Below, in pieces: positions 49,566 to 61,349 of a DNA stretch of 64,000 nucleotides; position 1 is the first letter of the stretch; every line of letters starts with the position of its first letter. The stretch lies in assembly GCF_009914755.1 (NCBI RefSeq), contig NC_060927.1. One strand, 5' to 3'. Made by a program: the position numbers and the translations under genes. The stretch is from the human T2T-CHM13v2.0 reference genome, Homo sapiens. Under the pieces are notes generated by a model. That model did no database searches and was not told the origin of the DNA. It saw only the letters and a list, made by a program, of their open reading frames with translations.

Positions 49566-49689
49566 TTATACAATATGGAGGTCTGTGCTATCAACTTCAC
49601 TTTATAACGCCTGAGACATCTTCACCTTGTTTCTAGTATCATAGTGTACTGTTCTTCTCTGTGTAGCTGGTGTAGGGTTGCATTTCATC
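49566..49689 (-). pseudogene. CD200R1-like last exon (cytoplasmic tail)
   Basis: ttttcttag|GATGAAATG... gives DEMQPYTSYTEKNSTL*; the shifted frame gives YDTRNKVKMSQAL*SEVDSTDLHIV*. CD200R1 reads DEMQPYASYTEKNNPLYDTTNKVKASEALQSEVDTDLHTL. Confidence 0.95.
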
Positions 49690-50358
49690 CTAAGAAAAAA
49701 AATCAAAGTCAAAATCAGTTCAAAAAGGGCAGAAATCATTATGGAAACTACCTGTTTTTTATAATAGGTGTCCACAGCTTTTGGTATCAACCAAGAGTGC
49801 TTATATTTGTGTTTCTGGGCTCACGTGAATATAAGAGCAAGGCTTTGTTCTAATATTTGTTAATTACTTAAGTCTCTGTGAGAGATGATGGTTGCATGAA
49901 AGTAGGAATAGAGATGAATGAAGTGGTATGAGAAGTATTCCAAAGGAGAGAGCCAAAGACATAGTAAGCTACTGGCATAAGAGATTCCAGGGCAGGATAT
50001 GTTTTAAGCTAGGGTAAGAGGAAAACGATGATGGTATTGAAAAATAGAAGTCAAGGTTCAGAGATGCTTTCCTGTAAATGGAAATGCCAATTCAGTTTCT
50101 CCAAAGATTACAGTTCAAAAGAGATAAACATCACGTGTATTAGGACATGGTTCATGAAATGAAAATGTGGATCTGGGTGGTCTATACATAGTACTTGATA
50201 GGTAATTAACAAAATAATTGCATCTATTTGCATTGTAAATCAGAACTGTTTGTTTTTCAACTAAAACACTAATATTGCTACACATTACAAATTATGTTAC
50301 TATATTTTCACACTATTGACTTAAAAGTTTGTAAATATTCTTTTTAATCTTATCTTAC

Positions 50359-50404
50359 CTCCTCAACAACTAGAGTAGCTTCTGTTTTATTCAATTTATA
50401 TTTT
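50359..50404 (-). pseudogene. CD200R1-like 46-nt juxtamembrane exon
   Basis: ttttatag|AAAATAT...GAGGAG|gtaaga gives (R)[15 protein letters not shown] vs CD200R1 [15 protein letters not shown]. Confidence 0.95.
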
Positions 50405-50428
50405 CTATAAAAATAAAATAAGCTGGAG

Positions 50429-50733
50429 TTGCTGGGTGCTGTGGCTCATGCCTGTAATGCCAGCACTCTGGGAGGCCAAGGCGGGCAGATTGCCTTAGCT
50501 CAGGAGTTTGTGACCAGCCTGGGCAACACGGTGAAACCCAGTCTTACTAAAATACAAAAAATTAGCCGGGCATGGTGGCATGTGCCTGTAGTCCCAGCCA
50601 CTCGGGAGGCTGAGGCAGGCGAATTGCTTGAACCCAAGAGGTGTAGGTTGCAGTGACCTGAGATGACACCACTGCACTCCAGCCTGGGTGACAGAGCGAG
50701 ACTCCGTCTCAAAAAAGAGAGAGGAAAAAAAAA
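50429..50733 (+). mobile_element. AluS, antisense to the CD200R-like gene
   Basis: Full dimer; TSD aagctggagt (50419-50428 / 50734-50743). Confidence 0.92.
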
Positions 50734-51257
50734 AAGCTGGAGTAAGTGGAGGTAATATTATTTAGATTGAAAATTGAAAGAAGTGTACTATTGACAATTG
50801 TGGTTCATTTTGATAGAAGCCATAATAAATCAGAAAGAAACTACCAGAAATGAGTGAAGGATACTGCTTGTAGCTACTACACTCATAGAAGAAAAGTCTA
50901 GATTTTGAAAAAAGAAGTGAAATTATGCAATAGGAGCTTGATGCAATTGAACATATGTAACACCTCCTCTTTGGTACAAGAAAAGAATTGTAATTATCTA
51001 TCCAAATTAAAAAATCAGCATGCACTATCTCTCCCAAGATCCTGCCCTAAATGGCCTAATTCGCCATGCTTGCATGCCAAAGCAACCTAGGAAAATCACT
51101 CACATCTGTCAAGGTAGTTCAAATCCAACATCTTCAGGATATTCTGTGATTATGAGAGATTTGATGTTAGAATTCTAATTGGTCAGTCAATTCCATATTT
51201 CTGGCCCTTTTCTAGTGCAATAAAGCTAAAGAAGAAAAAACATTCATCAATCAATAC

Positions 51258-51360
51258 CTGCAGCCACTGATTTTCAAAACCCAAAGCAATCCCACAATGA
51301 TCAAAATAAAACTCATAAAAATAATAGAGTGAATACATAGTTTTACTGATGTTTTGGTAC
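51258..51360 (-). pseudogene. CD200R1-like transmembrane exon
   Basis: ttacag|GTACC...TGCAG|gtattg gives GTKTSVKLCIHSIIFMSFILIIVGLLWVLKISGCR vs CD200R1 GAKKSAKLYIPYIILTIIILTIVGFIWLLKVNGCR; frame is open. Confidence 0.93.
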
Positions 51361-51394
51361 CTGTAATTATAAACAAAAATATATGTTTCAAATG

Positions 51395-57941: not shown

Positions 57942-58035
57942 TGCTATTTCAAGTGTGCTTGGCAGATCATCAGTAGCAGCAACAGCATCACGTGGAAGCT
58001 TGTTAGAAATGCAGAACACTAGGCCCCCACCCAAT
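57942..58035. mobile_element. MER5A-like fragment (similar piece at 55806-55842)
   Basis: cagcatcacgtggaagcttgttagaaatgcagaa...ggcccccaccc. Confidence 0.72.
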
Positions 58036-58094
58036 GACTATTCTAAACTTCTTAGCCACGAAAACAAGAAAGAGAAGGATAAAATTGAGCATTT

Positions 58095-58659
58095 TATTTT
58101 TTTCTTTTTAAAATTTTTTATTTTCGTAGGTTTCTGAAAAAACAGGTGGTATTTGTTTACATGAGTAAGTTCTTTGGTGGTGACTTGTGGGATTTCAGTG
58201 CACCCATCACCTGAACAGTATACACTGAACCCAATTTGTAGTCTTTTATTCCTCACCCCCCTTCCCACACTTTCTCCCAAGTCCCCAAAGTCCATTGTAT
58301 CATTCTTATGCCTTTGCATCCTGATAAATTAGCTCCCACTTATGAGTGAGAATATACGATGTTTGTTTTCCAATCCTGAGTTACTTCATTGAGGATAATA
58401 GTCTCCAGTTTCATCCAGATTACTGCAAATGCCATTAATTCATTCCTTTTTATGGCTGAGTAGTATTCCATGGTGTGTGTGTATATATATGTCACAGTTT
58501 CCTTATCCAATCATTGATTGATGTGCGTTTAGACTGGTTCCATATTTTTGCAATTGCAGTGTGAAGATTCCTTAAAGAACTAAAAGTAGAACTATGATTT
58601 GATCCAGGAATCTCACTACTGTGTATCTACCCAGAAAAAAGAAGTCATTCTTCGAAAAA
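58095..58659 (-). mobile_element. L1PB 3' end with a short 5' inversion
   Basis: Minus 3'UTR to ~58557, then plus-strand upstream L1 sequence 58560-58659. Confidence 0.82.
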
Positions 58660-59249
58660 TTATTCTTACATGATATATGTACAACTAGCTTGTATAATTT
58701 TCCCTGTAGTTTACCATTTTCTATGTACTAACATCCCTAAACAAATTTTTAAAAATCAATTAAATATATATTGAGCAGCCACTTTGTTCAAGGACAGCTT
58801 TGCCATAAGGTACATAATAAAAGAACAGTTATAAGTCAATCAATGATTGAGTAAAATTTTAATTTTTCAGTATCAATTGCTTTATAGGAATGAGCATATA
58901 TACACAGCTAATTTAAGCCCACTATGCATGAAACTAAACTAAAAAAGTATGAAAAGTGGAGCAAATTTAATGATGTTTATATATCACCAAGAGTTGATTC
59001 AGTGAAAAAACAAAATAGCAACAATTGTTTGGTATCTAAAACCTGAAATTTTGTCTATGTAAATAGTATATAGAGACAATCTATCTCTCTAAAATAATAG
59101 AAATATTGCCAAAGTACCACTATACTAGCTGTTGGTGTGTGGGAAATTCTTTTGGTTACTTGTTTCTGTGTTTAATTTTTTAAATATTAATTATTTCTAT
59201 TATACATCAACTATTTATCATTACCTTATTTTTGTATCAACATGGTACC

Positions 59250-59573
59250 TTTTTTAAGGAACAAGGTCTCACTATGTCATCTAGGCTTTAGTGGAGTGGC
59301 ACAATCATAGCTCATGTAACCTTCAACTCCTGGTTTCAAGCAATCCTCTCACCTCAGCCTCCCAAGTAACTAGGCTACAGGTATGGTAGCCATTATGCTC
59401 AGCTAATTCTTTTATTTTTATTTTTTTATTTTAATTCTTTTATTTTTATTTTTTATAAAGATGGGGTCTTGTTATGTTGCCCAGGCTGGTCTCAAACACC
59501 TGGCCTCAAGCAATCCATTGGTCCTGGCCTTCCAAAATGTTGAGATTACAGATGTGAGCCAATGTACCCAGCC
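59250..59573 (-). mobile_element. AluJ
   Basis: Diverged dimer with an expanded linker; degenerate TSD aa(c/t)atg(g/a)tac. Confidence 0.88.
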
Positions 59574-61184
59574 CAATATGATACATCTTAATTAACACAA
59601 TGTTATCTATCCTTTCTCCTTTCTTTGCTTCCTGTACTAGATGCAGACAAGTTCAGAGATGAAGGCAGGTATTCAAGTGGAGGATTTTAAAAGAAATTCA
59701 CTATAAAATTCTGGGAGTTACAGGTACAAGAATTAGTAAGCTAATCATGGTCTTGTTTTTACTCTGACAGCTTTGCTACAGTCACTGCGTTCTCCACAAA
59801 TGGAACTATGTACAGAATTTATGACAACTAAAGTGAATTTCCTGAGAAATGTAATTTTGGAGAAATTGAAGGATTTATGAAGAGATGATACTAACAGAGG
59901 CATAGCAATGTTGCATTTGAACTGATATAACAAGCTGATTATGAAGAGGCATAGTGGAAGAAAATGATATTCAGGGGAATAATAAAAAGTCATCTGTGAC
60001 CAACTAAGTTGGTCTGAGTTCCACTTTAAATTTATTTCCAGAAATCTTTACTCTCCTGCTCCAATCCTGACTGGTTGCTTCCTATTTCCATTTTATGATT
60101 TCTTATTCTGGCACTTTCTTTTGATATTTACCTGGGAAATCTCCTCAGCTGTCTTCTCTATTGAAGCCCATGTTTCCAGAATCCTAGCTTCTTTACTGGT
60201 TTTCTCCTTATTTGAGAGTTTACATGCCTGAAATTTTCTTTGAATCTGTAGCATATTCGCAAGGGTCATTCAGTTTCTGCCTTGAAAGTTGCTCAAAATC
60301 TTGTCCCAAGAGGTATGTGTGCCTATCTGGGGTATTTGGGGACCTGGACAGGGAATGAGGGCTGGCAGGGATTGGGGGTGTATTTCTCTGGTAAATATAT
60401 AGATTCCACTTAATCCACCTATTTTCAGCCCCATATCTCCTCTTGAATCTTTCTGTTCCCATTGTCTGTAAGACTAAATTCTTTGTGATTCATGTTCTAT
60501 AGGGAATAAATCTAAAATCTGAGAATTTGGAAGGGAATGTTGAGACTTTTCAGGGTCTAACCACCTCTTACACAGAATTTCAAACAATTCTCTTAATTCC
60601 AGACCTGGGCTTTGCACTCACTTTCTGCAAAACCCAATTCTTGAGCCTTTGCAGCTTGGTTCTGTTTCCTCCTGAAGAAACACGTTCAGCTTCCTCTATT
60701 CTCCTGGGTGATCAAGCTTTCCATCCTCCAAAATACGTTAATGTTTCCTAACCCCCTGTGTCTTCTCTCCTGACATTTTGATTCCTTTAGGCCTATATGT
60801 TTTAAATATTATTATTGTCATATTAATAGCCATTCAGGAGAGAATAGACACGATACATCTATTCAATTCACCATGTCAAACTAGAAATCTCCATTTTTAT
60901 TTAAAATCCTGTGGCATTTTTTTATTTTTTTATTAAGAAATGTTTTTTCAAAGATAATTTTGGCAGAAATATAAGTAATTAAGACATTATCTTTCTTTTT
61001 TAAAACATAGTGATTAAAATAAAGTAGCATTTTCACTCTTTGAGCTATTTTAAACTGAGCATTTTAAAGGACTAGTGGAAAAGCTCTAGTGGAAAAATAT
61101 TCTAATGTATTTTTCTAATTATGGTTTCCTCTCTACTTCGCCCAATACCCCTCAGCATCCCCGCAACTTGGCCAACAGACTCAC

Positions 61185-61230
61185 CAGCTATGAAAAAAAA
61201 TGTGAACAGTATCCCAAAAGCTGAAGCCAT
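61185..61230 (-). pseudogene. CD200R-like leader (signal peptide) exon, coding part
   Basis: aagATGG Kozak context; MASAFGILFTFFFIA then G|gtgagt phase-1 donor. With the upstream WK it aligns to CD200R1 WRTANLGLLLILTIFLVA. Confidence 0.78.
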
Positions 61231-61349
61231 CTTCCAAAGGGAGTTATTTCTATTTTTTTTTTCTTATCTTTGCCTCTATGTTTTCTTCCACTGTATAATA
61301 GGCCTAGTTATGGTATTTTACTTCTCTTGCTCTGCTCCATTAGCACTGG

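What the first reader, a model, noticed from the sequence alone, without database searches (positions are those of the whole stretch)
49566..61247. Hidden CD200R1-like inhibitory receptor gene relic among repeats
Seen: four minus-strand exons in CD200R1 order with GT-AG sites and compatible phases (1, 2, 0). Known: CD200R1 is the inhibitory member of a paired receptor family with a three-tyrosine tail, while CD200R1L is the activating type with a TM lysine. These exons differ from remembered CD200R1 at many positions, have no lysine in the TM core, and carry a tail. Inference: an additional inhibitory paralog, possibly unannotated.
Basis: partly seen in the sequence, partly recalled or inferred. 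Interest (0 to 1): 0.8.

Follow-up and report, generated by a model that had tools for sequence, protein, structure and literature searches.

The report
Broken leftover of a CD200R gene
This stretch holds the decayed remains of an extra copy of the immune-brake receptor gene CD200R1, which has lost its ligand-binding exons and its key signalling tyrosine, so it is an ordinary, already partly catalogued pseudogene of mainly evolutionary interest.

Summary
All four minus-strand exons exist. Three of them (TM 51366/51360-51258, cyt1 50404-50359, cyt2 49689-49566) sit in an 8.4 kb block (46977-55417). That block is colinear with the 3' third of CD200R1, introns and 3' flank included, at K2P 0.20-0.27. 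It is therefore an unprocessed duplicate, not a retrocopy. RefSeq's CD200R1P1 covers only cyt1 and cyt2.

The fourth exon (61230-61185) has no long DNA match to CD200R1. However, it is 9/12 identical to the N-terminus of an alpaca CD200 receptor 2 model. The ORF just upstream (61340-61272) matches the N-termini of second CD200R1-like models of lemur and tarsier, both of which carry inhibitory-type tails. So it is probably a true family first exon.

The gene is dead as a receptor:
- No IgV or IgC2 exon lies in the window.
- The TM exon's ancestral acceptor is lost.
- A 2-nt deletion stops the tail at a TGA just before the NPxY tyrosine.
- A second stop follows.
- dN/dS against CD200R1 is 0.83.

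Verdict: the relic of an additional inhibitory-type paralogue. It is real, non-functional and partly annotated. Whether exon 1 and the 3' block once formed one gene is probable, not shown.

The parts
46977..55417 (-). Block homologous to the 3' third of CD200R1. It covers part of the intron before the TM exon, the TM, cyt1 and cyt2 exons, the 3'UTR and about 0.5 kb of 3' flank. This is the true extent of the unprocessed pseudogene.
   Evidence: Seven colinear blastn HSPs to CD200R1 at window coordinates 73663-80907, 73-80% identity. One further HSP, 55369-55417 to 80966-81014, 81.6%, E 1.7e-7. K2P 0.198-0.265 in six blocks.
51258..51366 (-). Transmembrane exon. The ancestral acceptor is lost (AA). 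An AG 6 nt downstream gives an exon start at 51360 in phase 1. The donor GT is kept, phase 2. The frame is open and the hydrophobic core has no lysine.
   Evidence: tblastn E 4.2e-10 to the CD200R1 TM exon peptide. Alignment. Borders and dinucleotides.
50359..50404 (-). First cytoplasmic exon (46 nt). AG and GT are kept. It differs from CD200R1 at 2 bases.
   Evidence: tblastn E 5.9e-10.
49566..49689 (-). Last coding exon equivalent. The EEDE..PY..Y..K part of the signalling motif is kept. Lesions: a 2-nt deletion between 49649 and 49646, a premature TGA at 49641-49639, a TAA at 49604-49602 in the old frame, and a 3-nt insertion.
   Evidence: tblastn in two frames, E 2.75e-8. Alignments. Coordinates.
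61185..61230 (-). Leader-like first coding exon: ATG, 15 codons plus 1 nt, donor GTGAGT, phase 1. It is probably a true CD200R-family exon 1.
   Evidence: Sequence. It is the only hit of the leader scan. It is 9/12 identical from the Met to the N-terminus of alpaca P0093: score 43 against a next-best 24 among 120 N-termini, 0 of 500 shuffles reach 43, and the reverse scan ranks the site 1 of 4260. A weak in-register DNA alignment to exon 1 of CD200R1 and CD200R1L.
61272..61340 (-). ORF just upstream, in another frame, with an internal stop. It matches the N-terminal residues of the lemur and tarsier second CD200R1-like models.
   Evidence: tblastn 14/23 identical to P0035, E 0.002. In a six-frame scan, the first 30 aa of P0035 score 57 here against a next-best 38 of 4260 segments. 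The first 20 aa of P0039 tie for top at the same site. Frames.
50430..50725 (.). Alu-like insertion in the intron between cyt1 and the TM exon. It is absent at the matching place in CD200R1.
   Evidence: The CD200R1 homology breaks at 50429/50725 while CD200R1 runs on (77506/77488). The interval matches many Alu-like copies in both neighbouring loci.
54211..55040 (.). L1 fragment inserted in the pseudogene's upstream intron remnant.
   Evidence: It matches L1-like copies at several places in the CD200R1 locus. The CD200R1 homology resumes at 55072.
55425..57823 (.). Interspersed repeat (55425-55757), then an L1 with a reverse-transcriptase ORF (55860-57823). The CD200R1 homology ends at their edge.
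   Evidence: Own-genome search: 824 candidates, 40 scored, 81-84% identity. RVT_1 E 3.6e-22 for 57329-57832..
58102..61055 (.). Segment 88-91% identical to chromosome 4 (contig C4, 111066118-111069057), with one part inverted. It lies between the leader-like exon and the 3' block and is younger than the CD200R1/P1 split.

Best explanation
The region holds the remains of a third CD200R gene of the inhibitory type. It lies between CD200R1 and CD200R1L on the same strand.

Shown:
- An 8.4 kb unprocessed copy of the 3' third of CD200R1 (TM, cyt1 and cyt2 exons with their introns, 3'UTR and flank) lies at 46977-55417. It is about 0.24 substitutions per site from CD200R1 and evolves without coding constraint.
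- No Ig exons exist here.

Probable:
- The exon at 61230-61185, with the ORF just upstream of it, is the first exon of the same old gene. Its counterparts head CD200R-family gene models in alpaca, lemur and tarsier, and the lemur and tarsier models end in inhibitory-type tails.

Inferred:
- In the lineage to humans the Ig exons were lost. L1 and other insertions now fill that gap. What is left is a non-functional pseudogene that makes no receptor.
- From the divergence and the tree, the 3' block separated from CD200R1 before Old and New World monkeys split, around early primate times.
- Exon 1 is older. It is shared with a camelid and its flanks no longer align to CD200R1. The gene was therefore a mosaic, or its 3' half was overwritten from CD200R1.

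The confidence given is for the whole statement, including that exon 1 and the 3' block come from one former gene. The core claim, an unprocessed CD200R1-type pseudogene without Ig exons, I put at about 0.97.
For: 3' block:
- The own-genome search finds only this place and CD200R1 for 49566-50406 (2 of 2 places).
- Colinear blastn blocks cover introns and flank.
- Exon peptides score E 4e-10, 6e-10 and 3e-8.
- Splice sites and phases 1, 2, 0 are as in CD200R1.

Decay:
- The acceptor reads AA; there is a 2-nt deletion, a TGA and a TAA.
- dN/dS is 0.83 over 89 codons. Exon identity is 233 of 274 nt; introns are 78-83% identical.

No Ig exons:
- Six Ig exon peptides give a best E of 0.24-2.
- All 120 family proteins hit only the TM, cyt1 and cyt2 exons plus one spurious place.
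- Genome-wide, the IgV and IgC2 exons occur only in CD200R1, in CD200R1L and in its degenerate extra pair.

Exon 1:
- The alpaca match.
- The lemur and tarsier N-terminal match directly upstream on the same strand.
- An in-register three-way DNA alignment with the CD200R1 and CD200R1L leader exons, in which the donors align.

Motif:
- The abstract of PMC8007030 gives EEDExxPYxxYxxKxNxxY and says the NPxY tyrosine is fully conserved. Here the motif ends after K-x.

Age:
- K2P 0.20-0.27.
- In the tree the pseudogene is sister to all simian CD200R1, support 87/91.
Against: - The tail tree groups the pseudogene with simian CD200R1 (87/91), not with the second lemur, galago and tarsier copies. Holding them together costs 2.5 to 9.9 log-likelihood units, and the AU test does not reject it (p 0.375 and 0.138). 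Orthology to those genes is therefore allowed but not shown.
- The flanks of the leader-like exon show no homology to the flanks of the CD200R1 or CD200R1L leader exons (ranks 35 to 158 of 254), whereas the 3' block's introns are about 79% identical. The two parts have different histories.
- The reciprocal DNA scan of the leader against the CD200R1 and CD200R1L loci was not top-ranked: 18 against a top of 19 of 878 windows, and 16 against a top of 19 of 424. The exon-only codon-shuffle test gave p 0.11 and 0.05.
- The lemur match had E 0.002 in a run that also gave 10 spurious hits at E 0.002-0.043. Its weight comes from its place and from the six-frame rank.
- The lemur model is flagged low quality. 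The lemur and tarsier models lack a hydrophobic leader.
- The alpaca model is of the activating type, and only that one protein cluster carries this N-terminus.
- No genome of another mammal could be read, so synteny is untested.
Confidence: 0.6

Rival explanations
1. Two unrelated leftovers lie side by side. The 3' block is a partial duplication of CD200R1's last three exons that never had Ig exons. The exon at 61230 is an old orphan or alternative first exon of the activating gene lineage (CD200R1L / CD200 receptor 2), as used in the alpaca model.
For: - The only protein with a closely matching leader is an activating-type alpaca receptor.
- Exon 1's flanks do not align to CD200R1, while the 3' block's introns do.
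- The tail tree puts the block next to simian CD200R1.
- CD200R1L lies downstream on the same strand (hub table).
- Most of the DNA between the block and CD200R1's 3' flank is later L1 and other insertions.
Against: - The lemur and tarsier models that begin with the sequence matching 61340-61272 end in inhibitory CD200R1-type tails. Here such a tail lies downstream of that exon in the right order, strand and phase.
- A simple tandem partial duplication would leave no old sequence between CD200R1's flank and the copy, yet this old exon lies there.
Confidence: 0.25
2. The leader-like exon is a chance ORF with a chance donor. Only the three 3' exons are real.
For: - No blastn homology of 61056-62400 to CD200R1, to CD200R1L or to the rest of the window.
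- The exon-only test was not significant.
- The reciprocal scan was not top-ranked.
- The scan criteria were set after seeing the hit.
Against: N-termini of three family proteins from three species each have their best match, or in one case an equal-best match, in the whole window within 61185-61340 on the minus strand. 0 of 500 shuffled leaders reach the alpaca score.
Confidence: 0.08
3. The locus is still used. One possibility is that the four exons are spliced into an 81-codon open frame: a leader, a membrane span and a short tail with the EEDE..PY..Y part but no ectodomain. Another is that the first exon serves as a distal alternative start for CD200R1L.
For: - The joined frame is open for 81 codons.
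- Every splice site but one is intact, and the lost acceptor has an in-phase AG 6 nt away.
- The ATG context and the donor are strong.
- The leader is as similar to the alpaca one (9/12) as working leaders of this family are between orders.
Against: - dN/dS is 0.83.
- No protein in the 5.8-billion-protein set holds the human exon (14 candidates, none at E up to 10).
- No gene model exists here other than the pseudogene (hub table).
- No paper names the locus.
- No expression data could be read.
Confidence: 0.05

Closest known systems
CD200R1 (human inhibitory CD200 receptor; window coordinates 74153-128046, minus strand)
   Same: The TM, cyt1 and cyt2 exons, their phases (1, 2, 0), the introns, the 3'UTR and the 3' flank are homologous. 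Exons are 85% identical and introns 78-83%. The TM has no lysine. The EEDE..PY..Y..K part of the tail motif is present.
   Different: There are no IgV or IgC2 exons. The first exon is different. The TM acceptor is lost. The tail is cut before the NPxY tyrosine. Coding constraint is absent.
CD200R1P1 as annotated in RefSeq (49575-50406)
   Same: It is the same locus and covers cyt1, the intron and cyt2.
   Different: The annotated span is 832 bp. The homologous block is about 8.4 kb and also holds the TM exon. The probable first exon lies 10 kb upstream.
Second CD200R1-like gene models of Lemur catta (P0035, flagged low quality) and Carlito syrichta (P0039)
   Same: Their N-terminal residues match 61340-61272. 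Their C-termini are CD200R1-type TM and tails.
   Different: They keep IgV and IgC2 domains. The tail tree does not join them to the human relic, although the AU test allows it. Their genomic positions are unknown here.
Vicugna pacos 'CD200 receptor 2' (P0093)
   Same: Its first 12 residues are 9/12 identical to the leader-like exon, starting at the Met.
   Different: It is an intact 268-residue activating-type receptor with a lysine in the TM.
CD200R1L (activating partner, downstream on the same strand)
   Same: Same family, same strand, and a leader exon of the same size and phase (15 codons plus 1 nt).
   Different: Its TM exon carries a lysine and has no homology to the relic's TM. It holds the Ig exons that the relic lacks.

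Membership tests
CD200 receptor family gene (IgSF paired receptor) | Leader exon ending in phase 1 | tested here: met
   61230-61185, donor GTGAGT, phase 1. Matches family N-termini.
CD200 receptor family gene (IgSF paired receptor) | IgV exon (V-set domain) | tested here: not met
   The control, the CD200R1 exon, hits V-set at E 1e-6. No hit in the window with 6 exon peptides or 120 proteins. Genome-wide there are only 4 matches, all in CD200R1 or CD200R1L.
CD200 receptor family gene (IgSF paired receptor) | IgC2 exon (C2-set domain) | tested here: not met
   The control exon hits C2-set_2 at E 2e-8. None in the window.
Inhibitory CD200R1 type | Transmembrane segment without a charged lysine | tested here: met
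   Translation of 51360-51258. Maximum 19-residue hydropathy 2.74.
Inhibitory CD200R1 type | Tail motif EEDExxPYxxYxxKxNxxY with the conserved last tyrosine (abstract of PMC8007030) | tested here: not met
   EEDE, PY, Y and K are present. The N is changed, and the frame ends in TGA two codons before the tyrosine because of a 2-nt deletion.
Inhibitory CD200R1 type | Open reading frame through to the normal stop | tested here: not met
   TGA at 49641-49639 and TAA at 49604-49602.
Activating CD200R type (CD200R1L-like) | Lysine in the TM and a short tail | tested here: not met
   No lysine in the TM core. No tblastn match of the relic's exons in the CD200R1L locus.
Unprocessed (duplicated) pseudogene | Introns and flanks of the parent retained; not a retrocopy | tested here: met
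   Colinear homology through both introns, the 3'UTR and the flank.
Unprocessed (duplicated) pseudogene | Disabling lesions and relaxed constraint | tested here: met
   Lost acceptor, frameshift, two stops. dN/dS 0.83.
Unprocessed (duplicated) pseudogene | No transcription or translation | not testable with these tools
   No expression data are held. No protein in the large set carries the human exon.

The most novel reading that the evidence does not exclude
The leader exon at 61230-61185 is not dead. It has kept its start codon, hydrophobic frame and consensus donor since before the primate-camelid split. It may still serve in humans as a distal, unannotated first exon. It could splice to CD200R1L, about 62 kb downstream. 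Or it could splice to the relic's own TM and tail exons, giving an 81-residue 'headless' membrane protein that carries the acidic and two-tyrosine part of the CD200R1 signalling motif and could compete for its adaptors.
Probability: 0.05. Interest if true: 0.55.

Novelty: already known. Interest (0 to 1): 0.22.

Why it matters
As a gene it does not matter: it cannot make a CD200 receptor.

Its value is historical.
- It shows that the human CD200R cluster once held a second inhibitory-type gene beside CD200R1 and the activating CD200R1L.
- Lemur and tarsier gene models may still carry that gene.
- The 5' and 3' halves of such paired-receptor genes have separate histories.

It also shows that the catalogued pseudogene span (832 bp) understates the relic. 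The relic is an 8.4 kb block, with a probable first exon 10 kb upstream.

In practice, reads and probes for CD200R1's TM and tail exons can cross-map here at about 85% identity.

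Tried and rejected
- Exons mapping to CD200R1 itself: rejected. This is a separate locus at 78% identity.
- Retrocopy: rejected. The introns are kept.
- Ig exons hidden among the repeats: sought and not found. The searches were tblastn of six Ig exon peptides at E up to 50, sensitive blastn of CD200R1 80600-84600, Pfam on nine window ORFs, of which only an L1 reverse transcriptase hit, genome-wide protein searches, and 120 family proteins.
- Long DNA homology of 57824-64000 to CD200R1 or CD200R1L: only repeats.
- A second copy of 61056-62400 in the window: none.
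- Homology of the leader exon's flanks: none.
- A simple tandem partial duplication as the whole story: set aside as the best model. An old family exon lies between the copy and CD200R1's flank. It is kept as a rival.
- The degenerate Ig pair inside CD200R1L as the relic's missing Ig exons: considered because its K2P to CD200R1 (0.249) equals the relic's. Its place, downstream of CD200R1L's leader, does not fit, and the titi monkey model that uses it is of the activating type.
- Dating by the tail tree: too weak. AU p values were 0.04 to 0.375.
- Earlier findings of the scan: not open.
- Papers: 0 name CD200R1P1. The search for CD200R1L, pseudogene and CD200R1 gave 2 unrelated papers; only the listing was seen.
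- A search for proteins that hold the human exon found none. A search for more proteins with the alpaca N-terminus found only that protein.

Full report
**Setting**

The window is chr3:115568001-115632000 of T2T-CHM13 (hub table). On the minus strand the gene order is CD200R1 (window coordinates 74153-128046), then the finding, then CD200R1L (-192 to -31354).

I fetched both neighbouring loci and used them as probes. The V-type Ig exon of the upstream gene matches solved human CD200 receptor 1 at E 1e-72, so the labels are right.

**The three 3' exons are real**

- A DNA search of the whole genome with 49566-50406 found 2 of 2 places: itself, and a place inside CD200R1 at 78% identity.
- blastn of the window against the CD200R1 locus gave seven colinear blocks, 46977-55250 to 73663-80907, at 73-80% identity.
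- A more sensitive run added 55369-55417 to 80966-81014.
- The block is interrupted by an Alu-like insert (about 50430-50725) and an L1 piece (54211-55040). Neither is present in CD200R1.
- The block covers CD200R1's last three coding exons, both introns between them, the 3'UTR and about 0.5 kb beyond the gene's end. This makes it an unprocessed duplicate, not a retrocopy.
- tblastn of the CD200R1 exon peptides against the window gave E 4.2e-10 (TM), 5.9e-10 (cyt1) and 2.75e-8 (cyt2, in two frames).

Exon borders:
- TM: 51366 (or 51360) to 51258.
- cyt1: 50404-50359.
- cyt2: 49689-49566.
- The phases are 1, 2 and 0, exactly as in CD200R1 (78139-78031, 77481-77436, 76745-76623).

**They are of the inhibitory type but broken**

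- The TM frame is open and has no lysine in its core.
- None of these exons has a match in the CD200R1L locus.
- The position of CD200R1's TM acceptor reads AA. An AG 6 nt further on keeps the phase.
- In the last exon a 2-nt deletion (between 49649 and 49646) sits in the codons that spell the NPxY motif in CD200R1. The frame then ends in TGA at 49641-49639.
- In the old frame a CAA has become TAA (49604-49602), and 3 nt are inserted.
- According to the abstract of PMC8007030 (passage seen), CD200R signalling needs EEDExxPYxxYxxKxNxxY, and the last tyrosine is fully conserved. Here EEDE, PY, Y and K remain, but the N and the last tyrosine are lost from the frame.
- dN/dS against CD200R1 is 0.83 over 89 codons: 0.97 in the TM exon and 0.73 in the tail.
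- Exon identity is 233 of 274 nt. Introns are 78-83% identical.

All of this fits neutral decay on this copy.

**There are no Ig exons**

- Six Ig exon peptides (CD200R1, CD200R1L and a degenerate pair inside CD200R1L) gave best E values of 0.24 to 2 anywhere in the window. Nothing was better than 3.1 between 55000 and 62500.
- All 120 family proteins found later gave 76 HSPs at four places: cyt2 (29 queries), cyt1 (6), TM (13) and one spurious hit.
- Genome-wide, the IgV exon has 4 matches and the IgC2 exon 4 credible ones. All of them are in CD200R1 or CD200R1L.
- As a control, Pfam found V-set and C2-set_2 in the CD200R1 exons. Among nine window ORFs it found only an L1 reverse transcriptase.
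- The homology to CD200R1 stops at 55417, at the edge of an interspersed repeat (55425-55757; 824 candidates in the genome, 40 scored).
- After that come an L1 (55860-57823) and a 3 kb segment that is 88-91% identical to chromosome 4, with one part inverted (58102-61055).

**The fourth exon**

At 61230 an ATG in a good context opens 15 hydrophobic codons plus one base, followed by GTGAGT.

*DNA evidence alone was ambiguous.*
- There was no blastn match of 61056-62400 to either neighbour or to the rest of the window.
- There was no homology of its flanks: ranks 35-158 of 254.
- A 125-nt in-register local alignment to CD200R1's first exon scored 19, against a null of 11.2 with sd 1.4; 0 of 200 shuffles reached it.
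- That alignment was the best of 850 windows, with the next best at 16.
- The CD200R1L leader ranked this site second.
- The reciprocal scans were not top: 18 against 19 of 878 windows, and 16 against 19 of 424.
- The exon-only codon-shuffle tests gave p 0.11 and 0.05.

*Proteins of other mammals settled it further.* A search with the CD200R1 IgV exon returned 129 proteins at E up to 1e-5 among 140 candidates, of which 120 were listed.

- Among their N-termini, one starts with residues 9/12 identical to the window's exon from the Met on. It is the alpaca 'CD200 receptor 2', P0093.
  - Its score was 43 against a next-best 24.
  - 0 of 500 shuffled leaders reached 43; the maximum was 37.
  - The reverse scan of the six-frame window put this site first of 4260 segments, 43 against 35.
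- The ORF just upstream (61340-61272, in another frame, with one stop) is 14/23 identical to the start of a second CD200R1-like model of Lemur catta (P0035).
  - tblastn gave E 0.002, in a run that also gave 10 spurious hits at E 0.002-0.043.
  - In the six-frame scan its first 30 residues scored 57 here against a next-best 38.
- The tarsier model P0039 begins the same way and ties for top at the same site.
- P0035 and P0039 end in CD200R1-type TM and tails.

So three family proteins from three species point to 61185-61340 on the right strand.

*Caveats.*
- P0035 is flagged low quality.
- P0035 and P0039 lack a hydrophobic leader.
- The alpaca protein is of the activating type.
- Only that one cluster has this N-terminus.
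- No protein holds the human exon: 14 candidates, none at E up to 10.

**History**

K2P to CD200R1 is 0.198-0.265 in six blocks. For comparison, it is 0.163 for the Ig-exon block of CD200R1L, and 0.249 and 0.227 for two other CD200R1L pieces.

With rates of 1 to 2.2e-9 per site per year (my own knowledge), this gives roughly 55-120 million years.

I built a tree of the TM and tail region with 36 rows and 92 columns.
- The rows were 35 proteins that I chose from the 64 with a tail hit, plus the relic with X at its breaks.
- I dropped redundant isoforms, truncated tails, alternative-frame isoforms and activating-type hits.
- The relic is sister to all simian CD200R1, support 87/91. Simian CD200R1 without it has support 92/75.

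AU tests were weak:
- Relic with the lemur and galago extra copies: p 0.375.
- Relic with those plus tarsier P0039: p 0.138.
- Relic with catarrhine CD200R1: p 0.37.
- All primate CD200R1 as one clade without the relic: p 0.04.

PMC9291319 (passages seen) places the CD200R1L duplication in the primate ancestor and says such duplications recurred.

The first exon must be older, because it is shared with a camelid and its flanks are not alignable. The old gene was therefore a mosaic, or its 3' half was overwritten from CD200R1.

**Verdict**

This is the relic of an additional inhibitory-type paralogue, but it is headless, has a truncated tail, is evolving neutrally, and is already listed in part as CD200R1P1 (49575-50406).
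- No paper in the library names it.
- The core claim, an unprocessed CD200R1-type pseudogene, is near certain.
- That exon 1 is a true family exon I put at about 0.85.
- That both parts come from one former gene I put at about 0.6.

Noticed in passing
outside the window: window coordinates -17181 to -16349 (G000 C3:115550819-115551651), inside CD200R1L: A second, degenerate IgV plus IgC2 exon pair, with stops, lies just upstream of CD200R1L's working exon 2, IgV and IgC2. Its K2P to CD200R1 is 0.249, against 0.163 for the working block. A titi monkey model (P0008) uses part of the equivalent IgV as coding sequence.
   Followed up: partly
outside the window: G000 C3:115547937-115548223 (CD200R1L IgC2 exon): The IgC2 exon of CD200R1L matches the CD200R1 exon in two pieces in different frames (query 1-71 and 74-96), and the open frame ends early. 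This assembly appears to carry a frameshift, which fits the hub's label 'transcribed_pseudogene' for CD200R1L.
   Followed up: partly
window 58102-61055: About 3 kb is 88-91% identical to chromosome 4 (C4:111066118-111069057). In the window, 60013-61055 is inverted relative to chromosome 4. The shared piece includes an L1 3' end. This looks like an interchromosomal duplicated segment younger than the pseudogene.
   Followed up: partly
window 49602-49820, minus strand: If the 46-nt cyt1 exon is skipped, the last exon is read in the alternative frame. Some carnivore and xenarthran CD200R1 models use that same frame (tails of P0045, P0055, P0072 and P0107). The 2-nt deletion then returns this frame to the old one, which gives the 72-codon ORF listed. 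It is a curiosity and no evidence of use.
   Followed up: no
proteins P0035, P0087, P0039, P0053: Lemur, galago and tarsier each have two gene models with CD200R1-type tails. In the extra lemur and galago copies the acidic EEDE stretch and other motif residues have decayed. The second inhibitory copy may be eroding in several primate lines.
   Followed up: partly
window 64001-73441 (outside the window, between it and CD200R1): Two long L1-like copies (about 64.0-68.8 kb and 69.5-73.4 kb) fill most of the gap between the window's end and CD200R1's 3' flank.
   Followed up: no
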